Virus record (IMG/VR): IMGVR_UViG_3300032053_000007
Direction: 5' to 3' (one strand)
Source: a virus
Taxonomy: Duplodnaviria > Heunggongvirae > Uroviricota > Caudoviricetes
Length of the DNA stretch: 64,000 bases
Each line of letters opens with the position of its first letter. Position 1 is the first letter of the stretch. A program made the translations under genes and the position numbers. The notes beneath the pieces are model-generated. The model was not told the origin of the DNA. It was given only the letters and a program-made list of their open reading frames with translations, and searched no databases. This document shows, in pieces, positions 16,736-63,141 of this stretch.

Positions 16736-16833
16736 ACAGAAAAGATATAGACTATCCTCTCATCTTTAGACGACTTCGCTGGTTTAAACGACTTGCTAAA
16801 GAATATCAGAAAGAAAAGGTGCAGTTCACATGA
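16732..16833 (+). CDS. VxFT-tail mini-protein (33 aa)
   Basis: ends EKVQFT; ovl at both ends. Confidence 0.5.
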   Translation: MNRKDIDYPLIFRRLRWFKRLAKEYQKEKVQFT

Positions 16834-17102
16834 CAATCATACTTAAAAAGAACTTCAAGAAATGTCCTATGTGCGGCTCACGAAATTTAGCCCCTCATCT
16901 TCATAGCCAACATACTGAAAAGGAAGTACCGTGGGTTCGTTGCGAAGATTGTACGGCAATGTTTGTTAGAAGTTGTTCAAGTAATTCCCCAACAGAATCT
17001 ATTGTTATTTGGAATCGTAGAGGAAATGGCACTAAAATTGAGCCTGAAAGCACTAGCGTCTTTGTAACGCCAGAAGACCCAGAGGTTGTGCATTTTACAT
17101 GA
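16830..17102 (+). CDS. Lar-like (restriction-alleviation family) zinc-ribbon protein
   Basis: KCPMCGS..VRCEDC..IVIWNRR pattern; ends EVVHFT. Confidence 0.5.
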   Translation: MTIILKKNFKKCPMCGSRNLAPHLHSQHTEKEVPWVRCEDCTAMFVRSCSSNSPTESIVIWNRRGNGTKIEPESTSVFVTPEDPEVVHFT

Positions 17103-20978: not shown

Positions 20979-20994
20979 TTAATCAACTGATTAA
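20979..20994. promoter_or_regulatory. TTAATCA-NN-TGATTAA palindrome
   Basis: ttaatcaactgattaa. Confidence 0.55.
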
Positions 20995-21042
20995 AAGTTT
21001 GGGGCATGGAGCCGAGGGGGTGGAAAAAAGCCATCTGACCCC

Positions 21043-21174
21043 CGAACTGAATCGAACTCGGCAATACGAGCAAATTTCGGGGCGATTTGGCTCCCGCCCT
21101 TTCCCACCGAGAAAATTTCCCATAGGGTGAGTTTCGAACTGAGTCGAATTTCCGAAAACGAGCAAATTTCGAGG
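21043..21174 (+). repeat. two 40-nt imperfect direct repeats (period 92)
   Basis: cgaactgaRtcgaa..acgagcaaatttcgRgg at 21043-21082 and 21135-21174. Confidence 0.6.
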
Positions 21175-21311
21175 CAGATAATTTTTACAGGTCTCGCAAA
21201 TGACCATCACTTTTTTGCTGGTTGGGGATGTTTGTATGGAGAGAATGGCTTTCGAAATTTTTCGAAGTGCCAAAAAAGCTCCCAACCCTGCTGGTCATGG
21301 AAACCGAATGT

Positions 21312-21327
21312 TTAATCAACTGATTAA
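21312..21327. promoter_or_regulatory. TTAATCA-NN-TGATTAA palindrome
   Basis: ttaatcaactgattaa. Confidence 0.55.
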
Positions 21328-21392
21328 AATAGTTCCTTTTATGACCTTCGGCATGGAGAAGTCCATGCAAACCAGCGATACTCATAGGGTTT

Positions 21393-27243: not shown

Positions 27244-27477
27244 ATGTTCGGATGGGGAAAGAAAGATAAATGCGATAGTTGTCCAACAGCGAAAATTTTA
27301 GAGGACGCAATGAGATTAGAGAGCGAAACGATTCGTACTTACCGCGACAGAATGGAAACACTTACGAATTATCTTCACCATTTCGAATTACGATACTTAG
27401 ACTTGAAAGAGGAAAACGAAGGTTTAAGAAAAGAGTTAAAGAAGTTGACGGGAAAAGAAAAGGTTCAATTCACTTGA
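27244..27477 (+). CDS. coiled-coil VxFT-tail protein
   Basis: heptad-like LKEENEGLRKELKKL; ends EKVQFT. Confidence 0.6.
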   Translation: MFGWGKKDKCDSCPTAKILEDAMRLESETIRTYRDRMETLTNYLHHFELRYLDLKEENEGLRKELKKLTGKEKVQFT

Positions 27478-27487
27478 GTTGATTGAA

Positions 27488-40233: not shown

Positions 40234-40373
40234 CGGAAATATACTGCGCTGGAAAAATAATTTACTGCGATGTCGGGGAGATAAATCATTATGACGATTT
40301 TTGTCAAAAGAGTTGCAGACAACGTTCGATTTGTGAAGTGAGAAAACAAAAAGAAGAGGTTCAATTCACTTGA
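40230..40373 (+). CDS. Cys-rich VxFT-tail mini-protein (47 aa)
   Basis: ends EEVQFT. Confidence 0.5.
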   Translation: MTEIYCAGKIIYCDVGEINHYDDFCQKSCRQRSICEVRKQKEEVQFT

Positions 40374-40567
40374 AAGAAATGACGTGCCAAGTTTGCGGAA
40401 AAAAGTTCTTCTGTAATTGTGACGAAGAATGTTCCCCAGACGCTACATTATGCTATTGTAAAGAATGTTCAATCAAAAAATGGGGAACAAAATTTACTGA
40501 AGATATAGGGTCACTTGAATTGTGCTATGGGGGAATACCCGAAAAAGAGAAGGTGTTATTCACTTGA
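40370..40567 (+). CDS. ZR-F family zinc-ribbon mini-protein
   Basis: CQVCGKKFFCNC..CYCKEC; ends EKVLFT. Confidence 0.65.
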   Translation: MKEMTCQVCGKKFFCNCDEECSPDATLCYCKECSIKKWGTKFTEDIGSLELCYGGIPEKEKVLFT

Positions 40568-41729: not shown

Positions 41730-41745
41730 TTAATCAGTTGATTAA
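41730..41745. promoter_or_regulatory. TTAATCA-NN-TGATTAA palindrome
   Basis: ttaatcagttgattaa. Confidence 0.55.
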
Positions 41746-41899
41746 AAGTCTGGGGAATACGTTGGGGGCTGGCAGAGGGCTTCACCATAAACCGAAATCT
41801 AATTGGGAAGAAAAAACGCCTATGTGCGTTATGTGACACTCAGGATTCTACTAAAAATTTAATTTTCGAGGGGACGGAAAGTTACACCGAAAGTGTGAC

Positions 41900-42031
41900 C
41901 TAGCCTTCGTCCTCTAGTGCTTCCTCAAGTTCTGACGGGTCGGGACAACCAACGGGTCGCCTGAAAGTTTTAACTACTTTTGCAAGAACAATTAAACCTA
42001 TTATGAAACCCAGAGTATCAAACGGAAACAT
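41900..42031 (-). CDS. small membrane protein (43 aa)
   Basis: MFPFDTLGFIIGLIVLAKVV..; ATG about 12 nt after TSS predicted from minus-strand cassette 42067-42099. Confidence 0.4.
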   Translation of the reverse strand: MFPFDTLGFIIGLIVLAKVVKTFRRPVGCPDPSELEEALEDEG

Positions 42032-42066: not shown

Positions 42067-42099
42067 CTTATAAATCTTTCCCTAAAAACGCCATGCTCA
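42067..42099 (-). promoter_or_regulatory. GAGCATGG-box/TATA promoter cassette (minus strand)
   Basis: reverse complement reads tGAGCATGGcgtTTTT..TTTATAAG; offset 24. Confidence 0.55.
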
Positions 42100-42164: not shown

Positions 42165-42180
42165 TTAATCAGGTGATTAA
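42165..42180. promoter_or_regulatory. TTAATCA-NN-TGATTAA palindrome
   Basis: ttaatcaggtgattaa. Confidence 0.55.
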
Positions 42181-42246: not shown

Positions 42247-42340
42247 TTTCAAAACTCGAAGCCTTTACATTCGAAGTCTGCGCGTTGCCGTTTTCCAAGA
42301 CTGATTTTCCAAAACGAACCCGAACGAAACCCAGATTCCA

Positions 42341-42520
42341 TAGGACTGATGGTCTTTTTAACATCGTTTCCATTGGTCGAAAAGCATTATTTGAGCCTCT
42401 TCGAACAAAAGAAGGACACTCGTTCAATATCGTTTATATATGTTCGAAATTATTGAACGATTTGCCCCGAAGAGAACGCTCAGGGGATGAAATTGAGAGT
42501 CGGGCATTATCCACAGTCCT
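42341..42520 (+). repeat. conserved 180-nt noncoding element, copy 1 (candidate structured RNA)
   Basis: collinear with 56347-56526: taggactgatg .. hairpin cgttcaat/attgaacg .. cgggcattatccacagtcct. Confidence 0.5.
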
Positions 42521-42629
42521 TTGGGGGACACTACTTCGGGGCACAGTTAAACTCTAGGTGTAATAAAAGTTTCGACCATGCCTTTGACCATCAACATTTA
42601 AGTCACTCAGAGTGCAACCTTTCACTTTT

Positions 42630-42645
42630 TTAAACAGTTGATTAA
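42630..42645. promoter_or_regulatory. palindrome (one mismatch)
   Basis: ttaaacagttgattaa, 7 nt upstream of box. Confidence 0.5.
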
Positions 42646-42651
42646 CTAAAA

Positions 42652-42684
42652 CGAGCATGGTCGTTCTGGGGAAACCTTTATAAG
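42652..42684 (+). promoter_or_regulatory. GAGCATGG-box/TATA promoter cassette
   Basis: cGAGCATGGtcgTTCT..TTTATAAG; offset 24; leader cgctggcatctata shared with 44919 cassette. Confidence 0.65.
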
Positions 42685-42714
42685 CTACGCTGGCATCTAT
42701 AAAGGTGTGGAAAA

Positions 42715-44442
42715 ATGACAAAGCAGAAACAAGCAAAGACGAACAACTTCTCTAAGATACTTGACGAGATGAGGAATCTTGCCATAGCAATTACGAAGGA
42801 CAAACGGATTCGTATCAAGTATATTCCAGAACAACCAACTTCTGCTTTCAATATGGAAAACTTTGAGATTTCTTTGAGTTTACAGAGTTATCCCGATTTC
42901 GTGAAAACATCGCCCCGTCTATTCCGAAAAATCCTAGACGGTGACATGGTTCACGAGTGCGGTCATCTGATTCTAACAAAACCGAATTGGGAATTTTTCA
43001 ACAATTGGACAACAAAAATCAAACGACAGAGAGGATTTTACAAGCTGGCTCACGAAGTTTGCAACATAGTTGAAGATAAGCGCGTGAATCATTTCATAAT
43101 TCTCAGATACAGGTTTGATGTCGGCAAGAGGCTACTTTTGGCGAATTTGATACTAAAAGACATGATAGACAACACAATTGAAAAGCCACAAATAGCCATG
43201 TCAACCATCTTACCGAAGGGCGAAAACTTAGGCGAAAACGAAATTCCAAACATGACAATTCAAGCTGGACAACAAGACGGGGTTTACATGGTTGCAATTT
43301 TGTGCAATGAAGGTCTATATGAGGCTAAATGCACAGAGTTATGGAACAAACTAAGCCCAGATGCTAGAAAGGACTGTGAAACAGCCCTTAAAGTGCTAGA
43401 GGGGACGAAATATCAACGTGTCAAACTCGACATAATAAGGTCTTGCCAAACGATTTATGAATTGGTAGCTAAACACTTGAACGCTGACTATACGACAAAG
43501 GAATATGTCGTTTCTAGAAGAGGGGGCAACGTAAAGGGCAAAATATCGGACAGACTTAGGCAATTACTAGAAAAAGAGGAAGAGCAAGAAAAGGCAGAAG
43601 AGGACAAGAAGAAACACCTAGAAGATTTGCAGAAAGGTTCGGGTGCTGGCGAAGGCACAGGCGAAGAGATTCCAGCCCCAGACCCAGATTTTGAGGCGTA
43701 TTCGAAACTTCTGGACGAATGCAAGCCTGAAATTTCCGAGCTATTGAATCAACTAAAGAAGAAAATGAAACCGAGAGTTCAACGGGACATTTTCCAGAAA
43801 CGCGGAAAAATGATGAGTCCAATTGTTCCACGCATCTACACAAACAGCTTTAGGGGAACCGTTCGCAATGTGTATCTGCGTACAACAACAAAATTTGAGA
43901 AGGAACAAGTCGCAATTCAATTTTGGTTCGATTTCTCAGGGTCAGTTAGTCGAATAGAGGCTGAAAAGATAACCACTATACTGAATGAGGTCTTTGGACA
44001 TTACGTTGACGATTACGGGTTCAGTATTGGGTGCTTTGGGGCAGATACCCAGAAAGTAAAGACTTTCTTTGAAACCTTCGAAAACACACGGGCAAGAATT
44101 GGAGCTATTTCGGTGAATGCTGGCGGTACTGAGGTTTCCGTTGGATTAGAGGCAAGCCTGAGAATGTTCAATACGATTAAAGGCGAACGCCGAAAGATTC
44201 TGGTCATTGCGTCCGATTTCTGCTTCTGTGGTGATGAAGAAACGAAAGCAGAGGAATTAATCGACCAATATGCGAAAGCTGGAATTGAATGTATCTTCAT
44301 AGGTTTCTGTGACTGTGAGAATGTAGAAACCTTCGCAAGCAAAGTGAAAAACTTGAAGTGCTCACGAACACGGATAAACCAAATATCCGAATTACCTCAG
44401 AGATTCCTAAACGTGTATCTAAACGTAGAAACCCAGAAGTGA
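42715..44442 (+). CDS. vWA-domain protein with N-terminal HExxH putative metallopeptidase domain
   Basis: MVHECGHLI; MIDAS-like FDFSGSVS; E/K-rich linker; architecture as in metallopeptidase-plus-VWA proteins partnered with MoxR ATPases. Confidence 0.65.
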   Translation: MTKQKQAKTNNFSKILDEMRNLAIAITKDKRIRIKYIPEQPTSAFNMENFEISLSLQSYPDFVKTSPRLFRKILDGDMVHECGHLILTKPNWEFFNNWTTKIKRQRGFYKLAHEVCNIVEDKRVNHFIILRYRFDVGKRLLLANLILKDMIDNTIEKPQIAMSTILPKGENLGENEIPNMTIQAGQQDGVYMVAILCNEGLYEAKCTELWNKLSPDARKDCETALKVLEGTKYQRVKLDIIRSCQTIYELVAKHLNADYTTKEYVVSRRGGNVKGKISDRLRQLLEKEEEQEKAEEDKKKHLEDLQKGSGAGEGTGEEIPAPDPDFEAYSKLLDECKPEISELLNQLKKKMKPRVQRDIFQKRGKMMSPIVPRIYTNSFRGTVRNVYLRTTTKFEKEQVAIQFWFDFSGSVSRIEAEKITTILNEVFGHYVDDYGFSIGCFGADTQKVKTFFETFENTRARIGAISVNAGGTEVSVGLEASLRMFNTIKGERRKILVIASDFCFCGDEETKAEELIDQYAKAGIECIFIGFCDCENVETFASKVKNLKCSRTRINQISELPQRFLNVYLNVETQK

Positions 44443-44896: not shown

Positions 44897-44912
44897 TTAA
44901 TCAGTTGATTAA
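44897..44912. promoter_or_regulatory. TTAATCA-NN-TGATTAA palindrome
   Basis: ttaatcagttgattaa, 7 nt upstream of box. Confidence 0.55.
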
Positions 44913-44918
44913 CTAAAA

Positions 44919-44951
44919 TGAACATGGTCTTTCTAAGCAAACATTTAAATA
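44919..44951 (+). promoter_or_regulatory. GAGCATGG-box/TATA promoter cassette
   Basis: tGAACATGGtctTTCT..TTTAAATA; offset 24. Confidence 0.65.
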
Positions 44952-44985
44952 GGACGCTGGCATCTATACTCGTAAGGTAATAAAG

Positions 44986-45873
44986 ATGAACTCAGAATTT
45001 GAAAAGATTCATGCAAAGGTCGAATCAGCACTTGAAGGTGCTGGCATCTACGTCAAAGGCATCGAGTTCGTGGACGAACATGGCTACATTGAAAAGTCAA
45101 GAGCGATTCTTGAAATTGTCGGCAACCTTAGATTAGTCGGCGAAACGGGGACGGGCAAAACAACTCTTGTTCACAAGTTGGCTGAATTGTTAGAGGTTCC
45201 GCTTTTTGAAATTGTCTTAACACGGGACGTGACAAAGTGGGATTTGCTGGCATGTGATACTCTGAAAGCTGGAAGCACAGAAACAAGAGATGGAATCATA
45301 ATTCAATGGTTGAACAGCGAGAAAGGTCTGCTTTACATAGACGGGTTCAACTATGCAGAACCATCGATAATTTCACTTCTGGAATCATTGGCAGACTTTA
45401 GGGGAAACGTGTATATTCCAGAATACAAGAAGCAATTCACACGGACAGCACAGCACTATCTCGTTATCAGCTATAACCCCTCAGAAAAATCGGGTTACTC
45501 TGGGACATTCATCGAGAACATTGCAACCATTAGACGATTTGAAGGTCTGATAATCGAATACCTTAGCCCCCAGAAAGAACGCGAATTGGTAAAGAAGTTC
45601 TCTGGAAACTATGACTTTTCTGCGAAGTTCGTAGAAATTGCCAAAAAGACGCGAACCGAATACGAGAACGGAAAACTTAGAACGCCCCTCACGACAGGCA
45701 ACCTAATAAACTACGGCAAACTCTACAAAGCGAAGATGTCCGAAGAGGACATAATCGATATAGCAAGTTCGCTTTACACCGCAAGAGAAGAGCGCAATTT
45801 ATTTAGGTCGTTCTTCGAAGATAGCTCTGAGATAGACGTAGAAAAGTTGAAAAAGAAAGAAGAGGATACCTAA
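44986..45873 (+). CDS. AAA+ ATPase, MoxR/CbbQ/CobS-like (AAA_5 type)
   Basis: Walker A GETGTGKTT; LLYIDGFNYA Walker B region (Gly where Glu is expected); IRRFEG like the MoxR DRF motif. Confidence 0.7.
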   Translation: MNSEFEKIHAKVESALEGAGIYVKGIEFVDEHGYIEKSRAILEIVGNLRLVGETGTGKTTLVHKLAELLEVPLFEIVLTRDVTKWDLLACDTLKAGSTETRDGIIIQWLNSEKGLLYIDGFNYAEPSIISLLESLADFRGNVYIPEYKKQFTRTAQHYLVISYNPSEKSGYSGTFIENIATIRRFEGLIIEYLSPQKERELVKKFSGNYDFSAKFVEIAKKTRTEYENGKLRTPLTTGNLINYGKLYKAKMSEEDIIDIASSLYTAREERNLFRSFFEDSSEIDVEKLKKKEEDT

Positions 45874-47352: not shown

Positions 47353-47368
47353 TTAATCAAGTGATTAA
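47353..47368. promoter_or_regulatory. TTAATCA-NN-TGATTAA palindrome on predicted TSS
   Basis: ttaatcaagtgattaa centred about 27 nt after TATA centre. Confidence 0.55.
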
Positions 47369-52370: not shown

Positions 52371-52386
52371 TTAATCAGTTGATTAA
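52371..52386. promoter_or_regulatory. TTAATCA-NN-TGATTAA palindrome on predicted TSS
   Basis: ttaatcagttgattaa. Confidence 0.55.
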
Positions 52387-55829: not shown

Positions 55830-56192
55830 GCAGGGCGAACCGACAGGTAGAAGGGACGGCGTGAACTCTCTGACCAGAAAATAATTGGAACCAAAAAAAC
55901 GCCTATGTGCGCTTATGTGATATTCTCAGTTGCATTCTATGGACAATTTCCTGTTAACCGAGGCGTTACCCCAAAAGTTGCACTTTTTGTTACACTAGAA
56001 GTTGTGCTAGACCAAAACGTTTATATACCCCCTATTTAAGCGTATCGCCGATAGCCTTATATAGTAGCTATTTAAACCTATCGGTTGCTTATATATGTGC
56101 AAACTTAGCAAAATTCGAACCATAAAGTACAACTCTCTATTATCACGTCCTTCGAACCATATACCGCAACTCTTATATAGATGCCATACTTA

Positions 56193-56225
56193 CTTATAAA
56201 CGTTTGCCCAGAACGACCATGCTCG
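56193..56225 (-). promoter_or_regulatory. GAGCATGG-box/TATA promoter cassette (minus strand)
   Basis: reverse complement reads cGAGCATGGtcgTTCT..TTTATAAG; offset 24; no convincing CDS downstream. Confidence 0.5.
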
Positions 56226-56346
56226 ATTTAGAGGCTGATTCAGGGCGGAAACAACTAACGGAGCACACTTACAGATTCGAACTCGCGCCGATGACTAGCT
56301 CTGAGACTGATTAACTAAAACGAACGTCATCGAACGGTGAATTCAT

Positions 56347-56526
56347 TAGGACTGATGACAATTTTGACGTTCTAACATTACCCCGAACTCCACGATTTAG
56401 CCTTATTCGACTAAACGGGGCGTACTCGCTCAATATCGTTGAGCAAATATAAAGGGAATTGAGCGTATTGCTCCGAACGACCCGCTCACAGGTTGATTTT
56501 AGAAAACGGGCATTATCCACAGTCCT
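56347..56526 (+). repeat. conserved 180-nt noncoding element, copy 2
   Basis: same landmarks and spacing as 42341-42520; hairpin cgctcaat/attgagcg shows a compensatory T-A to C-G change. Confidence 0.5.
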
Positions 56527-56792
56527 ACCCGCCATTGCTGGCGCGAACGGGCTTCGAACTTGGTTGTACTTTGAGTTACATTGAATATACATCATGCGTT
56601 ACTATGTAATATACGCTTAACGCGAACAACTCCAACTCTCTCAAACATACGTTCTCAGCGCACTATATATACGTTTGCTTTTTCCTGTACGACACATCTA
56701 CAAGTCAATGGTCGAACTGTTGGTTTAAGCTACACTTTAATGGAAACGTTTATAAGAGAGGGTGCGAACGTTATTCTAAGGACGTGAAACAC

Positions 56793-57287
56793 TTGAACGA
56801 TAAGGACGAATTGACACGACTTGAAAACTTAGCGCAAAAACTAGGTTTTACCGTGATATATAATTTAACCCTTAGCTGGAATCATTCGAAGGTTTCCTTT
56901 TATCCATGTCGAAGAATCCTTATCGGAACTAAGAACTATTCACCAAATTCAAATATCGGTTATGGAACCATACCTGATAAGGTTAAAGCGTTAATTCTGA
57001 ATCACGAGCTAGGGCATATTGTCGTATATGAAACGCTTTACCCTAACATGGATTTAGCTGATTTTTGTCTCTCAAATGATTCAAAATTCTTGGTACAACA
57101 AGAGATGTACGCATGGAAAACCGCAATAAATGAATCGCTCGATGATAATTCTGACCCTCTAGTGTTGGAATTGATACAAGAATCGATAAACCAATACATT
57201 TATTGTGAGTATATCGGAACATGCACAATAGAATCTCAGCAAGAACTACAGCAAAAAATAATTACTAAGTTTACACGTACAAAATAG
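56793..57287 (+). CDS. small HExxH metallopeptidase-like protein
   Basis: LNHELGHIVVYE; TTG 56793 six nt after AAGGACGTG (track used GTG 56784). Confidence 0.55.
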   Translation: MNDKDELTRLENLAQKLGFTVIYNLTLSWNHSKVSFYPCRRILIGTKNYSPNSNIGYGTIPDKVKALILNHELGHIVVYETLYPNMDLADFCLSNDSKFLVQQEMYAWKTAINESLDDNSDPLVLELIQESINQYIYCEYIGTCTIESQQELQQKIITKFTRTK

Positions 57288-58577: not shown

Positions 58578-58642
58578 GTACAACTTTCTATTAACTGAAA
58601 ACTTAGCGAATTTTTAATTTTCTTCCCTGTTCGAATATTGTC

Positions 58643-58762
58643 TTCGATTCACCACAATGACGTGCTATTGAACCATACTCTCCATTGTGATGAATTTGTG
58701 TCCCACTTCGAGGTATGGTCTTTTCCCATGCTTTTCTTCGAATGTTGACTTCGATTCATCAC
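58643..58762. repeat. TTCGATTCAYCAC iteron-like repeats with hairpin
   Basis: ttcgattcaccac 58643, gtgatgaat 58687 (inverted), ttcgattcatcac 58750; related set at 59592-59780. Confidence 0.5.
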
Positions 58763-58830
58763 GAATTTTGGAAACATTGTTGGCATGGATGGAACGGTAC
58801 GGCGGAGCCGTGCGGCGAACTTAGCATTTT

Positions 58831-59308: not shown

Positions 59309-59445
59309 AACTCCCTCTTTTTTTGACTTGCAAACTTAGCGGAAAAACAAATTTTAACTTAATATATACCTATGTGCGTTACACCCCAGACAGTTACCCC
59401 CAGAAGTTCAACTTTCGGTTGACCACAACCTTTATATAGGTCGCC

Positions 59446-59497
59446 ATACCGAAACGTTTATATACTACCCTATACCGAAACCCTTATATACTACCTA
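59446..59497 (+). repeat. two 26-bp tandem repeats each carrying a TATA box
   Basis: ataccgaaacSYttatatactaccYt x2. Confidence 0.55.
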
Positions 59498-59591
59498 TTT
59501 GACTTCATAGTTCCTGTTCTAACCATACAACACCGTCACTTATAAACCTTCCTATTTAACTGTTCAACAATAATACAGTTAGTACATTGTG

Positions 59592-59780
59592 TTCGATTCA
59601 TCACAACGATGAGAGCGAAAATTTCGTTCGAGAAAATATACATGAAAACACCATAGTACGAGTAACCACTTCGAAAACACACATATGGGGCAATAAAAAG
59701 ACCATTGTGGTGAATCGTAGCCAATTTCGAAGCATGGGAAAAGCATGGTAAATTCTCGAATCGTGACTTCGATTCACCAC
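59592..59780. repeat. TTCGATTCAYCAC iteron-like repeats (second set)
   Basis: 59592 (+), 59707 (inverted), 59768 (+); central ttcgaagcatgggaaaagcatgg resembles reverse complement of 58716-58752. Confidence 0.5.
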
Positions 59781-60024
59781 GCATAGGAACAAAAGTTCAC
59801 CGTGAGTTCAACTGTGGGTGACATTCAATTCAAGTGATGCGTGTCCATGTAATATACGCTTAACGCGAGGCTCTGGTTATGAACGTGGGCACGGGACTAT
59901 TTAAACGTTTGCTTTTAACTGTTTAACGTGACTACACATGACCATATAAACTGTATATTTGACCTACACTTTAAAGCCAACCTTTAAATACTACGTTCGA
60001 CACGTTACCTAATGGTGAACAAGG

Positions 60025-60498
60025 ATGCCAATAAAAACCGTGGAATTTGTCTTATATCTCTCGGACGTTGTAAACTTAGGCTTTTCAGAATTGACGATTC
60101 AAAAAATTAAGCAGAGATTGATAGACCACTTTTCATTTGGTACGAATTTACCAGAGAATTACGTTGTAATTTATCCTCATATTGTAGCGTTTGAGATGCA
60201 CAACGAGGATAAAATTGTTCGCAAATTTAACTATACAGTTCTGCATGAATTGATACACGGATTACTTGAAGAGAGTGAACTTAATACAGAAGAGATGTGC
60301 CACGCTTGGAGTATGATACTAACCGATGACCGTGAATCAAATGTAAGCGGTCAAGGACACCACTATTATCAAATGTTAAAAGGACGAACAGAAATCGTTG
60401 TAAACGAAGAACCCAAATTCGAGGCGGAAAAGCTAAACGCGGCGCGGAATTTGTCCAGAATGCGATTAGTGAAACACCATGAGCTAACAGGACTTTAA
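60025..60498 (+). CDS. small HExxH metallopeptidase-like protein
   Basis: VLHELIHGLLEE. Confidence 0.55.
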   Translation: MPIKTVEFVLYLSDVVNLGFSELTIQKIKQRLIDHFSFGTNLPENYVVIYPHIVAFEMHNEDKIVRKFNYTVLHELIHGLLEESELNTEEMCHAWSMILTDDRESNVSGQGHHYYQMLKGRTEIVVNEEPKFEAEKLNAARNLSRMRLVKHHELTGL

Positions 60499-61291: not shown

Positions 61292-61522
61292 TGCAACCGA
61301 GGCGGTTCACGGGAAGTTTAACTTTAAGTTGGTTTCTAATCATGGTATCCGTGTCCATGTAATATCCCGTTTTTTCTCGCGCTGAGGTTGTCGCCCTCAA
61401 TAGTAACGTGTGCATCGAGGTATATAAACGTTTGCTTTCAAGTGTAGAACAGGACTACAGTTTAGCTACACAACAACGTTTATAAGTCACGGTGATATAA
61501 TATAGTTAAGGACGTGTGTGAC

Positions 61523-62035
61523 ATGGACGCATTAAAAAAAGCTCTTGCGGTTAAGCGTAAAATGATTCACCCAGAACGACAAAATTTTTGTCTAAACAAA
61601 CTTAGTGAATTCTCGAAACGCTTAATATTAGGAATTCAAGACACACCTTATATTTTGCTTCCTGACCAAAAACAAACCTATTCTATCGATTTGAACCTTA
61701 AGCAATGCCGAAAAGCTAAACGGGACGGTTTACAGAACGTAATTCGTGCATCATGGTCAAATCTGCCTTTTAGAAATAAAAGCGAATTTGATATTATTTA
61801 TGCTGATAATTTCGGCGATAGAAAAGACATTAACGAAATAGCGCACGAAGTAAATCGACTGAAAACCAAAAAGCTCATCGTTTTAGGTGCGGCTAGAGCA
61901 TTCAGGAAGCCAGCGAAGCGTAAATGGAAATATCTGCTCAAAACGAGGTTCCCTAAGCTAAAGCTCCAAGAATTACGGAAGGACGGCGGTTATTGTTCCA
62001 CGGTGCAATGGACAGCAATACTGTATAAGCGTTGA
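61523..62035 (+). CDS. hypothetical protein
   Basis: trimmed to ATG 61523 after AAGGACGTG; NLPFRNKSEFDIIYAD only weakly methyltransferase-like. Confidence 0.55.
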   Translation: MDALKKALAVKRKMIHPERQNFCLNKLSEFSKRLILGIQDTPYILLPDQKQTYSIDLNLKQCRKAKRDGLQNVIRASWSNLPFRNKSEFDIIYADNFGDRKDINEIAHEVNRLKTKKLIVLGAARAFRKPAKRKWKYLLKTRFPKLKLQELRKDGGYCSTVQWTAILYKR

Positions 62036-62091
62036 ACACTTAAATAGGAACGTTTATATAGCTCGCCGCATACGTTACTATTGGTGAAAAA

Positions 62092-62538: not shown

Positions 62539-62758
62539 AACCCCAATTTTTTGTGTATTTCTGTTCTACAGTTAAAAGCGAAGGTTTAAATAGGTCGGCG
62601 ATATACTATATTTGTCGAGCGCGGGACTCGGCGGCGCGAGCTATCGGATATTACATGGGCACGGACGGCAAGAATCCACCGAAACGTTTATAAGCAACCG
62701 CCTCACCAGAACCTTTATAAGTCTCTGTGCTATACTATTCTATAAGGACTGTGAAAAC

Positions 62759-63052: not shown

Positions 63053-63141
63053 ACCCTTTCTTTTCTGTATTATTGTTCTACAGTCAAAAGCAAACGTTTA
63101 AATACCTCTCTGAACATATACTATTATTGGTGAAAAGCGCA

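What the first reader, a model, noticed from the sequence alone, without database searches (positions are those of the whole stretch)
42341..42520. A 180-nt noncoding element is present twice (42341-42520 and 56347-56526) with a compensatory base-pair change in a conserved hairpin
Both copies share the same landmarks at identical offsets:
- taggactgatg at offset 0;
- an 8-bp hairpin at offsets 80 and 111;
- the identical 20-mer cgggcattatccacagtcct at offset 160.

The hairpin reads cgTtcaat/attgAacg in copy 1 and cgCtcaat/attgaGcg in copy 2. A T-A pair is replaced by C-G, which preserves the pairing. A TATA-like sequence sits in the hairpin loop in both copies.

The track ORFs over the two copies lie on opposite strands (42285..42557 plus, 56311..56595 minus). 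The conservation therefore cannot be due to protein coding. Both copies lie downstream of a minus-strand promoter cassette within paralogous hubs.
Basis: seen in the sequence. Interest (0 to 1): 0.7.

Follow-up and report, generated by a model that had tools for sequence, protein, structure and literature searches.

The report
Conserved noncoding module upstream of viral genes
The two 180-base copies are real and belong to a small family of strictly length-conserved noncoding modules upstream of protease-like genes in an uncultivated, probably archaeal, virus, but the "conserved hairpin" is not kept across the family, so a protein-binding DNA control region is more likely than a folded RNA.

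Summary
Copies at 42341-42520 and 56347-56526 share 113/180 bases without gaps (z=11), all named landmarks and the T-A to C-G swap. No frame is open in both.

The conserved unit is about 280 nt, running about 90 nt further left. I found 12 distinct members in related metagenomic contigs, in three slots. Each lies upstream of a gene with an HExxH motif. All are 180-181 nt, with one indel column in 280.

There is no match in Rfam, IMG/VR or GTDB genomes.

Its compensatory change is one event. Watson-Crick covariation is no higher than under fake pairing rules. Three members fold no better than shuffled sequence, and G·U signals conflict between strands. No member has a promoter by this genome's own stereotyped standard.

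The module lies between promoters that fire away from it. It contains operator-like pieces and can be replaced in the same slot by a repeat-built module or by a gene.

Best reading: a cis-acting, protein-binding DNA control module (confidence 0.4). An RNA role is not excluded (about 0.3). It is undescribed, but of a familiar kind.

The parts
42251..42529 (+). Module A, copy 1 (c1): the full conserved unit of about 280 nt.
   Evidence: Alignment A7 columns 11-290. nhmmer with the 12-sequence profile hits 42251-42552, E=1.9e-76.
56257..56535 (+). Module A, copy 2 (c2): the full conserved unit. The core is 56347-56526.
   Evidence: A7. nhmmer hits 56257-56559, E=3.6e-89. The same sequence is found in 5 contigs.
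42341..42351 (+). Left boundary box TAGGACTGATG. AGGACTG is the inverted partner of CAGTCCT at 42514-42520. The same box lies at 56347-56357 in copy 2.
   Evidence: Nearly invariant in 12/12 members. The 7-bp pairing never covaries.
42501..42520 (+). Right boundary block CGGGCATTATCCACAGTCCT. The same block lies at 56507-56526 in copy 2. Only ACAGTCCT is family-wide.
42420..42460 (.). (T)ATTGAACGA, with an AT-rich 21-nt spacer. In copy 2 it lies at 56426-56466.
   Evidence: Intact in 7/12 members and broken in 5/12. There is one compensatory event.
42301..42319 (+). Half-palindrome plus linker, CTGATTTTCCAAAACGAAC. In copy 2 (56307-56325) CTGATTAACTAAAACGAAC contains a 16-nt stretch, TGATTAACTAAAACGA, identical to the junction between the palindrome (PAL) and the promoter at 42639. 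A weaker second copy lies near the right end (A7 columns 247-264).
42270..42275 (.). First of six conserved same-strand YCGAA(C) sites inside the module (A7 columns 32, 75, 85, 139, 163, 229). A seventh lies just outside at column 310 and is absent from the c1 copies.
42069..42098 (-). Minus-strand type-1 promoter cassette to the left of copy 1. It fires leftward into a called 43-aa gene at about 41900-42031. The counterpart for copy 2 is 56195-56224.
   Evidence: (I1, I11).
42630..42682 (+). PAL plus type-1 promoter cassette of the downstream vWA gene.
42715..44442 (+). Downstream gene of copy 1: a 575-aa protein with an N-terminal HExxH region and a vWA domain. It is followed by a MoxR-type AAA_5 ATPase (44986-45873).
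56784..57287 (+). Downstream gene of copy 2: a 167-aa protein with HExxH and a zincin-like predicted fold.
58620..58790 (+). Cassette B: a different noncoding module built from TTCGATTCAYCAC repeats. It replaces module A upstream of the vWA gene in L003 and L004. An inverted copy lies at 59690-59800, upstream of the 157-aa HExxH gene (60025-60498). That slot holds module A (type c3) in L076 and L079.

Best explanation
Module A is a cis-acting DNA control region, not a folded RNA. It is about 280 bp long and sits in the gap between two promoters that fire away from it.

It presents a fixed-register set of short recognition sequences:
- two inward-facing AGGACTG boxes about 170 bp apart;
- one well-conserved copy, plus a weaker second copy, of an operator half-site plus linker (CTGATT-N5-AAACG);
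- six same-strand YCGAAC sites.

DNA-binding proteins of the virus or host would assemble on these sites. The complex would set the activity of the flanking promoters, above all that of the downstream zincin-like (HExxH) gene.

Shown here: the family, its strict length, its block conservation, its position between outward-firing promoters, its lack of a promoter of its own, and its replacement by other cassettes in the same slot.

Inferred: protein binding, any looping between the inverted boxes, and the regulatory outcome.
For: 1. There are twelve members in three paralogous slots. They have only one indel column in 280 aligned columns, against 41 gap columns in the next 87. Variable stretches keep their exact length. 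That fits helical-register constraints better than RNA loops.
2. The conserved parts are short invariant sequence blocks that do not covary.
3. A stable fold is not a family trait. z is -2 to -4.7 in the 'alpha' variants, but +0.4 and +0.7 (plus strand) and -0.5 and -0.6 (minus strand) in c3_L079 and c3_L076, and -0.9 and -1.0 in c2_L077.
4. No promoter is found within or beside the module on either strand by a matrix trained on this genome's own promoters. The best module score is below 8 bits. Real promoters have a median of 15-19 bits, and the downstream gene promoters score 15-17.
5. A minus-strand BRE/TATA box lies 140-286 nt to the left and points away in 11 of 12 members. A plus-strand one was found 218-397 nt from the core start, pointing away, in 9 of 12.
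6. The blocks reuse the genome's operator grammar. TGATTAACTAAAACGA is identical to the palindrome-promoter junction, and TAGGAC also follows the TATA box in the promoters.
7. In L003 and L004 the same slot holds cassette B, an array of direct and inverted 13-mers.
8. The 167-aa downstream protein has a predicted zincin fold. It is closest to ArdC, CapP, PrpR and IrrE, whose systems include regulatory proteases controlled from intergenic operators.
Against: - No binding protein is identified and nothing was measured.
- The distance from the module to both flanking promoters varies: 38 to more than 200 nt on the right and about 50-190 nt on the left. A classical upstream activating site would not behave so.
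- The invariant 7-bp terminal inverted repeat would close an RNA exactly at the core boundaries. Seven members have a good central hairpin.
- A small hairpin (A7 columns 151-155/166-170) shows 2-3 compensatory changes.
- In L013 the same slot holds a protein gene with its own promoter. So slots can hold independent genes, and an RNA gene remains possible.
- Strong plus-strand TATA boxes 250-340 nt upstream in 7/12 members could read through the module.
Confidence: 0.4

Rival explanations
1. Module A encodes, or is part of, a functional RNA on the plus strand. It could be a small RNA of about 180-230 nt closed by the AGGACUG/CAGUCCU helix. Or it could be a long leader made by read-through from upstream TATA arrays. 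Its conserved single-stranded blocks (YCGAAC and others) would bind a protein or another RNA, perhaps together with the downstream zincin-like protein.
For: - The terminal 7-10 bp helix sits exactly at the core ends in 12/12 members. Its extension pair 111-273 reads G-C, G-U or A-U in all 12 on the plus strand.
- Seven members have z-scores of -2 to -4.7.
- Compensatory changes occur in the central hairpin (1 event) and in the hairpin at columns 151-155/166-170 (TTAG/CTAA, TTGG/CCAA, TTGA/TCAA).
- U-rich sequence follows CAGUCCU in about 8/12 members.
- The module is a unit whose distance to its neighbours varies. It shares its slot with a real gene cassette in L013, whose TATA box aligns with the module's TATA-like TTTACATT.
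- Plus-strand TATA boxes lie 250-340 nt upstream in 7/12 members.
Against: - There is no excess covariation: 29 Watson-Crick pairs against 22-30 under fake rules, and 79% against 77.5% paired.
- The central hairpin is lost in 5/12 members while the sequence blocks stay conserved.
- Three members fold no better than shuffles.
- G·U evidence points to opposite strands in different helices.
- There is no promoter of this genome's stereotyped type and no consistent T-run terminator.
- The absence of indels even in the supposed loops is unusual for RNA.
- No Rfam match.
Confidence: 0.3
2. The module is another kind of DNA site: a replication origin with iteron-like repeats, a partition or packaging site, or a site-specific recombination site that mediates the cassette exchange seen in these hubs.
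For: - Inverted boundary boxes, repeated same-strand short motifs and fixed length.
- It lies in an intergenic gap between outward-facing promoters.
- The slots show cassette replacement (A, B or a gene) between otherwise collinear genomes.
- Cumulative GC skew flattens near 53-54 kb, close to copy 2.
Against: - There are up to three diverged copies per genome, and close relatives lack any copy.
- There is no AT-rich unwinding region: the core is 39-47% GC against about 37% for the genome.
- No initiator, ParA/ParB, terminase or recombinase gene was recognised nearby. Pfam scans of larger ORFs found none, though many small ORFs were not scanned.
- No target-site duplications, and all copies are syntenic rather than dispersed.
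- The skew change coincides with the drop in coding density.
Confidence: 0.12
3. The module is a decaying relic of duplicated promoter or operator DNA with no function of its own. Similarity would be maintained by recent duplication or gene conversion.
For: - Parts resemble promoter-cassette pieces.
- Phylogenies of element and neighbouring gene disagree. c2_win's gene is closest to L076 (91% nt) but its core is closest to L078 and L079 (83%). That shows recombination between copies.
- Some close relatives do without it.
Against: - Copies that are only 56-66% identical keep the same invariant blocks at the same offsets without indels, in three slots and several genomes.
- The flanks lose alignability within about 10-30 nt.
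- Nucleotide conservation is about that of the adjacent coding genes.
Confidence: 0.05

Closest known systems
Intergenic operator or immunity regions next to ImmA/IrrE/CapP-type zincin protease genes (phage and ICE immunity modules, CapH-CapP, DdrO-IrrE)
   Different: No HTH repressor gene was recognised beside it, though the small neighbouring ORFs were not scanned. At 280 bp it is far longer than known operators. Its distance to the promoters varies. Protease activity and any repressor are unproven. The fold model is only moderately confident (pLDDT 70).
Plasmid and phage repeat-built DNA sites (iteron origins, parC-type centromeres)
   Same: Several same-strand copies of a short motif, plus inverted boundary repeats, in a fixed-length intergenic unit.
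   Different: The repeated motif is only 5-6 bp, not 11-22 bp. It is not regularly spaced (43, 10, 53, 24, 66 nt within the module). No cognate Rep or Par genes were recognised. There are several diverged copies per genome.
Y RNA / Ro60 (TROVE-vWA) modules and other small RNAs closed by a terminal stem
   Same: Copy 1 lies next to a vWA-domain protein with a MoxR partner. A terminal stem is formed by the two ends of a unit of about 180 nt.
   Different: The vWA protein has no TROVE domain (no Pfam hit). There is no Rfam Y-RNA hit. Copies 2 and 3 adjoin proteins without vWA. The internal structure is not conserved.
Box C/D small RNAs and hammerhead ribozymes (because of CUGAUGA at the 5' end)
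   Same: Copy 2 begins AGGACUGAUGA, which contains both UGAUGA and CUGANGA.
   Different: The last A is not conserved: G, A or U across members. There is no CUGA D box before the 3' stem strand and no GA for a kink-turn. There is no GAAA/UH core. At 180 nt it is too long for C/D. No Rfam hit.

Membership tests
Any Rfam 15 family | Covariance-model score at or near the gathering threshold | tested here: not met
   There are 0 hits at gathering thresholds over the window. Permissive scans of both copies gave only chance-level hits, with E of 1 or more and bit scores less than half the gathering score.
Structured noncoding RNA (generic) | A secondary structure shared by the family and supported by compensatory changes above background | tested here: not met
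   Pairing is 79% against 77.5% in shuffles. The central helix is 68% paired and broken in 5/12 members. Covarying Watson-Crick pairs number 29, against 22-30 under fake rules. With only 12 sequences the power is limited.
Structured noncoding RNA (generic) | Folding energy better than shuffled sequence in all members | tested here: not met
   z is -2 to -4.7 in 7 members, but +0.4 and +0.7 (plus strand) and about -0.5 (minus strand) in c3_L079 and c3_L076, and about -0.9 in c2_L077.
Independent archaeal transcription unit | A BRE/TATA promoter about 25 nt upstream of the unit, and an oligo-T terminator after it | tested here: not met
   The best module score is below 8 bits, against a median of 15-19 for the genome's promoters. 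T-runs after CAGTCCT are 0-4 nt long and inconsistent. Non-canonical promoters cannot be excluded.
Box C/D sRNA | C box RUGAUGA near the 5' end and D box CUGA near the 3' end, next to a terminal stem, 50-70 nt overall | tested here: not met
   UGAUGA is present only in c2_win. No CUGA lies before the 3' stem strand. Length is 180 nt.
Hammerhead ribozyme | Conserved CUGANGA, GAAA and a UH cleavage site around three helices | tested here: not met
   Position A9 varies (G, A or U). No Rfam hit.
MITE / nonautonomous transposon | Terminal inverted repeats with target-site duplications, and dispersed near-identical copies | tested here: not met
   A 7-bp terminal inverted repeat is present, but there are no duplications at the flanks. 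Copies are 56-66% identical and always in the same three syntenic slots.
Integron attC site | Imperfect palindrome of 57-141 nt with R''/R' cores (RYYYAAC / GTTRRRY), downstream of promoterless cassettes, with an integron integrase | tested here: not met
   At 180 nt only the outer 7-10 bp are self-complementary. The core sequences are absent. It lies upstream of genes that have their own promoters. No integrase was recognised, though not all small ORFs were scanned.
Archaeal or viral replication origin | AT-rich unwinding element flanked by initiator-binding repeats, next to an initiator gene | tested here: inconclusive
   Inverted boundary boxes exist. But the core is more GC-rich than the genome (39-47% against about 37%), and the neighbours are vWA/MoxR and small zincin-like genes. 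No replication data.
Y RNA with Ro60 | TROVE-domain protein next to an RNA with a conserved Ro-binding stem | tested here: not met
   The vWA protein gave no Pfam hit. Precomputed Pfam hits of its homologs include VWA but never TROVE. No Y RNA hit in Rfam.
Cis-regulatory protein-binding DNA module | Sequence-specific protein binding, and an effect on neighbouring promoters | not testable with these tools
   The support is only indirect: fixed register, invariant blocks, operator-like pieces, position between outward-firing promoters, and replacement by the repeat-built cassette B.

The most novel reading that the evidence does not exclude
Module A is a new virus-encoded RNA family of about 180-230 nt, closed by the AGGACUG/CAGUCCU helix. 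It would work together with the adjacent ImmA/IrrE/CapP-like zincin proteins, for example as an RNA that gates or targets the protease. It would have co-duplicated with these genes three times while the proteins diverged almost beyond recognition.
Probability: 0.2. Interest if true: 0.65.

Novelty: new member of a known kind. Interest (0 to 1): 0.4.

Why it matters
Regulatory DNA and noncoding RNAs of uncultivated archaeal viruses are almost unknown. This genome has an unusually legible regulatory grammar: stereotyped promoters, a 16-bp operator palindrome, and interchangeable noncoding cassettes.

Module A is its most strongly constrained noncoding piece. It keeps its exact length and sequence blocks while the adjacent genes diverge to the limit of detection.

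If it is a protein-binding platform, it gives a handle on how such viruses wire switch-like genes. If it is an RNA, it would be a new family linked to zincin-type proteases. Either way, the finding as first framed, a covarying hairpin, should not be cited as evidence for RNA structure.

Tried and rejected
- **Protein coding.** All six frames have stops in several members. There is no 3-base periodicity, and a 1-nt indel occurs.
- **tRNA or tmRNA.** None found. The TTCGAAT/TTCGAAC motifs have no flanking T-stems.
- **Known RNA families.** Rfam negative.
- **Close DNA or protein matches in annotated phage records.** None.
- **Pattern scans of IMG/VR.** Searches found nothing. One search gave only chance hits.
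- **Pattern scan of GTDB genomes.** One chance hit in a 63% GC bacterial contig.
- **Antisense or guide idea.** No complementary matches of 12 nt or more between the variable parts and the rest of the window, beyond chance-level 12-13-mers.
- **Minus-strand promoter guessed by eye at 42555-42580.** It is not conserved in L017, and promoter scores in the right flanks are weak.
- **Internal promoter in the AT-rich loop.** About 8 bits in copy 1 only.
- **Helical phasing of YCGAAC sites.** Only the first four are in phase (own arithmetic).
- **Upstream helix at columns 43-49/80-86 (CGAUGAC/GUCAUCG).** Good in c2, partial in c1 and c3.
- **CM and profile searches in more distant relatives.** Only a partial sub-motif was found, CGTAWTGCYCCGAACGAC...TGATTT..AAAC, in L009, L022, L069 and L084.
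- **Literature search for a described element.** Nothing relevant.

Full report
**Observation**

Both copies are as described.
- They share TAGGACTGATG at offset 0, the arms CGTTCAAT/ATTGAACG and CGCTCAAT/ATTGAGCG at offsets 80 and 111, and the 20-mer CGGGCATTATCCACAGTCCT at offset 160.
- They align without a gap at 113/180 identities. Random window pairs give 47 ± 6, so z=11.2.
- No reading frame is open in both, and mismatches are spread evenly over codon positions.
- The similarity begins about 90 nt left of the stated start and ends about 10 nt after CAGTCCT.

**The genome**

The window comes from ENA metagenome contigs of 86 and 152 kb.
- Nearly all genes are on the plus strand.
- Promoters are stereotyped BRE/TATA cassettes (GAGCATGG-N20-AAnnTTTATATAGGACG). 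I take these as archaeal-type; that is an inference.
- A 16-bp palindrome, TTAATCAnnTGATTAA (PAL), occurs 24 times next to promoters.
- Distant relatives of the neighbouring vWA gene lie on IMG/VR viral contigs.
- There are no tRNAs and no Rfam hits.

**The family**

I fetched loci around homologs of the two downstream genes. I searched them with a profile and a covariance model. This gave 12 distinct members, all on the gene strand and all 180-181 nt long. They fall into three slots.

| Type | Slot | Members |
|---|---|---|
| c1 | upstream of the 575-aa vWA gene | window, L066, L017 |
| c2 | upstream of the 167-aa gene | window, L076, L077, L078, L079, L083 |
| c3 | upstream of orthologs of the window's 157-aa gene (in L083, an unrelated 148-aa gene) | L076, L079, L083 |

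- The MAFFT alignment (A7) shows a conserved unit of about 280 nt. It has a single indel column, while the next 87 columns hold 41 gap columns.
- Copies of different types are 56-66% identical. Within c2, the module's nucleotide identity tracks that of the adjacent gene.
- Across the 12 members no frame is consistently open, and there is no 3-base periodicity.
- Scans of IMG/VR and GTDB genomes found no further members.
- A shorter sub-motif, CGTAWTGCYCCGAACGAC...TGATTT..AAAC, recurs in more distant relatives.

**Is it a structured RNA?**

With twelve, only the invariant terminal helix AGGACUG/CAGUCCU survived.
- Counting a composite structure gave 79% paired cells against 77.5% in shuffles.
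It is intact in seven members and disrupted in c2_L076, c2_L077 and all three c3 members.
- Its U-A to C-G change is shared by three close relatives, so it is one event.
- A structure-blind count found 29 Watson-Crick-consistent covarying column pairs. Three deliberately wrong pairing rules gave 22, 22 and 30. So there is no excess over phylogenetic background.
- Folding z-scores are -2 to -4.7 for the seven hairpin-bearing members. They are about 0 for c3_L079 and c3_L076 and about -0.9 for c2_L077.
- G·U evidence is contradictory. The pairs 111-273 and 227-265 favour the plus strand. The small hairpin 151-155/166-170, which does show 2-3 compensatory changes, favours the minus strand.

So a family-wide fold is not supported. 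Twelve sequences give limited power.

**Is it transcribed on its own?**

I trained a matrix on the genome's own 35 promoters.
- It scores real promoters at a median of 15-19 bits and the downstream gene promoters at 15-17 bits.
- Nothing within the module or its flanks exceeds about 8 bits on either strand.
- T-runs after the unit are short and inconsistent.
- A minus-strand TATA box lies 140-286 nt to the left and points away in 11 of 12 members. A plus-strand one was found 218-397 nt from the core start, pointing away, in 9 of 12.
- In 7/12 members strong plus-strand TATA boxes 250-340 nt upstream could read through the module. RNA is therefore not excluded.

**What the conserved blocks are**

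Invariant or nearly invariant features:
- the inward-facing AGGACTG and CAGTCCT boxes;
- six same-strand YCGAA(C) sites, with a seventh just outside the module in c2 and c3;
- TATCGT;
- CGTATTGCYCCGAACGA;
- CTGATT-N5-AAACGAAC. In copy 2 this is identical over 16 nt to the junction between PAL and the promoter box. It recurs in weaker form near the right end.

TAGGAC is also the sequence that follows the TATA box in the standard promoters. The module is thus built from pieces of the genome's protein-recognition vocabulary, held in a fixed register.

**Slot polymorphism**

The vWA gene of L003 is 88% identical to the window's, and that of L004 is 83% identical. In both, the stretch between the same flanks holds cassette B instead of module A.
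- Cassette B is 85% identical over 136 nt to window 58635-58768. It is made of direct and inverted TTCGATTCAYCAC repeats.
- In L013 the slot holds what reads as a small zinc-ribbon gene with its own TATA box.
- In the window, the c3 slot upstream of the 157-aa gene holds an inverted cassette B.
- L067-L070, L080-L082 and L087 lack module A.

**Downstream genes**

The genes downstream of c1, c2 and (in L076 and L079) c3 all carry HExxH at residues 74-84.
- The 167-aa family aligns with the N-terminus of the vWA family: hhalign E=1.2e-4 over 83 columns. The 157-aa family aligns only weakly.
- Pfam gives only faint zincin hints.
- These are leads, not memberships.

**Verdict**

The element is real, strongly constrained and undescribed. 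The feature that drew attention, a covarying hairpin, does not generalise.

| Reading | Confidence |
|---|---|
| Cis-acting, protein-binding DNA control module between outward-firing promoters | 0.4 |
| RNA role | about 0.3 |
| Origin, partition, packaging or recombination site | about 0.12 |
| Relic | about 0.05 |

Strand-specific transcript data and a much larger alignment would decide between them.

Noticed in passing
window, genome-wide (e.g. 960-1025, 42649-42702, 44916-44969): About 35 highly stereotyped promoter cassettes, GAGCATGG-N~20-AAnnTTTATA(T/A)AGGACG, almost all on the plus strand. A conserved box about 45 nt upstream of the TATA box is unusual for archaeal-type promoters. It suggests a virus-specific transcription factor.
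   Followed up: partly
window, 24 sites (e.g. 41730-41745, 42165-42180, 44897-44912, 47353-47368, 52371-52386): A 16-bp palindrome, TTAATCAnnTGATTAA. It lies either about 7 nt upstream of the GAGCATGG box or about 20 nt downstream of the TATA box. It is probably the operator of a dimeric regulator.
   Followed up: partly
window, more than 32 sites (e.g. 16809-16835, 27453-27479, 40349-40375): A gene-junction motif, GAAAAGGTGCAATTCAC(A/T)TGA. It combines a Shine-Dalgarno-like GGTG with a start codon that overlaps the upstream stop. Many upstream ORFs therefore end in a similar ...EKVxFT peptide.
   Followed up: no
window 59430-59500 and 56012-56100; L076 and L077 at -343, -317 and -293 from the element: Tandem arrays of 3-6 TATA-box units with a period of about 26 nt, on the plus strand. 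They face a minus-strand promoter, so convergent or overlapping transcription is possible upstream of the noncoding modules.
   Followed up: partly
window 58620-58790 (+) and 59690-59800 (-); L003:3703-3910; L004:1523-1714; also L078, L079, L080-82, L087: Cassette B, a second conserved noncoding module built from TTCGATTCAYCAC repeats. It has interleaved inverted repeats (GTTCGAATA..TATTGAAC and GATTCACCACAATG..CATTGTGATGAAT). It occurs in both orientations and swaps with module A.
   Followed up: partly
window 20980-21330: A further noncoding hub between two palindromes, with a direct repeat ACGAGCAAATTTCG(G/A)GGC and a high density of CGAA/TTCG.
   Followed up: no
window 56655-56694, 59541-59579, 59897-59938, 61409-61460, 62020-62058, 62552-62593, 63065-63116: A second promoter-cassette type, TGTTCTACAGTnAAAAGCAAACGTTTAAATA, present in both orientations across the 56-64 kb gene-poor region.
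   Followed up: no
window 41811-41845 and 55894-55930: A shared motif, AAAAAACGCCTATGTGCG(C)TTATGTGA. On the minus strand it reads as a short hairpin followed by a T-run. It ends the small minus-strand units that start at the promoters to the left of each module. One unit holds a called 43-aa gene; the other has no convincing ORF.
   Followed up: no
proteins P0005, P0020 and P0059 (homologs of window 42715-44442): These vWA homologs, about 890-900 aa long, carry intein-type Pfam hits (PF14528, PF14890). P0011, P0018 and P0019 are also about 920 aa but have no intein hit on record.
   Followed up: no
window 42715-44442, 56784-57287, 60025-60498: Three otherwise dissimilar proteins share an HExxH motif at residues 74-84. 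Two of them may share a homologous N-terminal zincin-like domain of about 90 aa (hhalign E=1.2e-4).
   Followed up: partly
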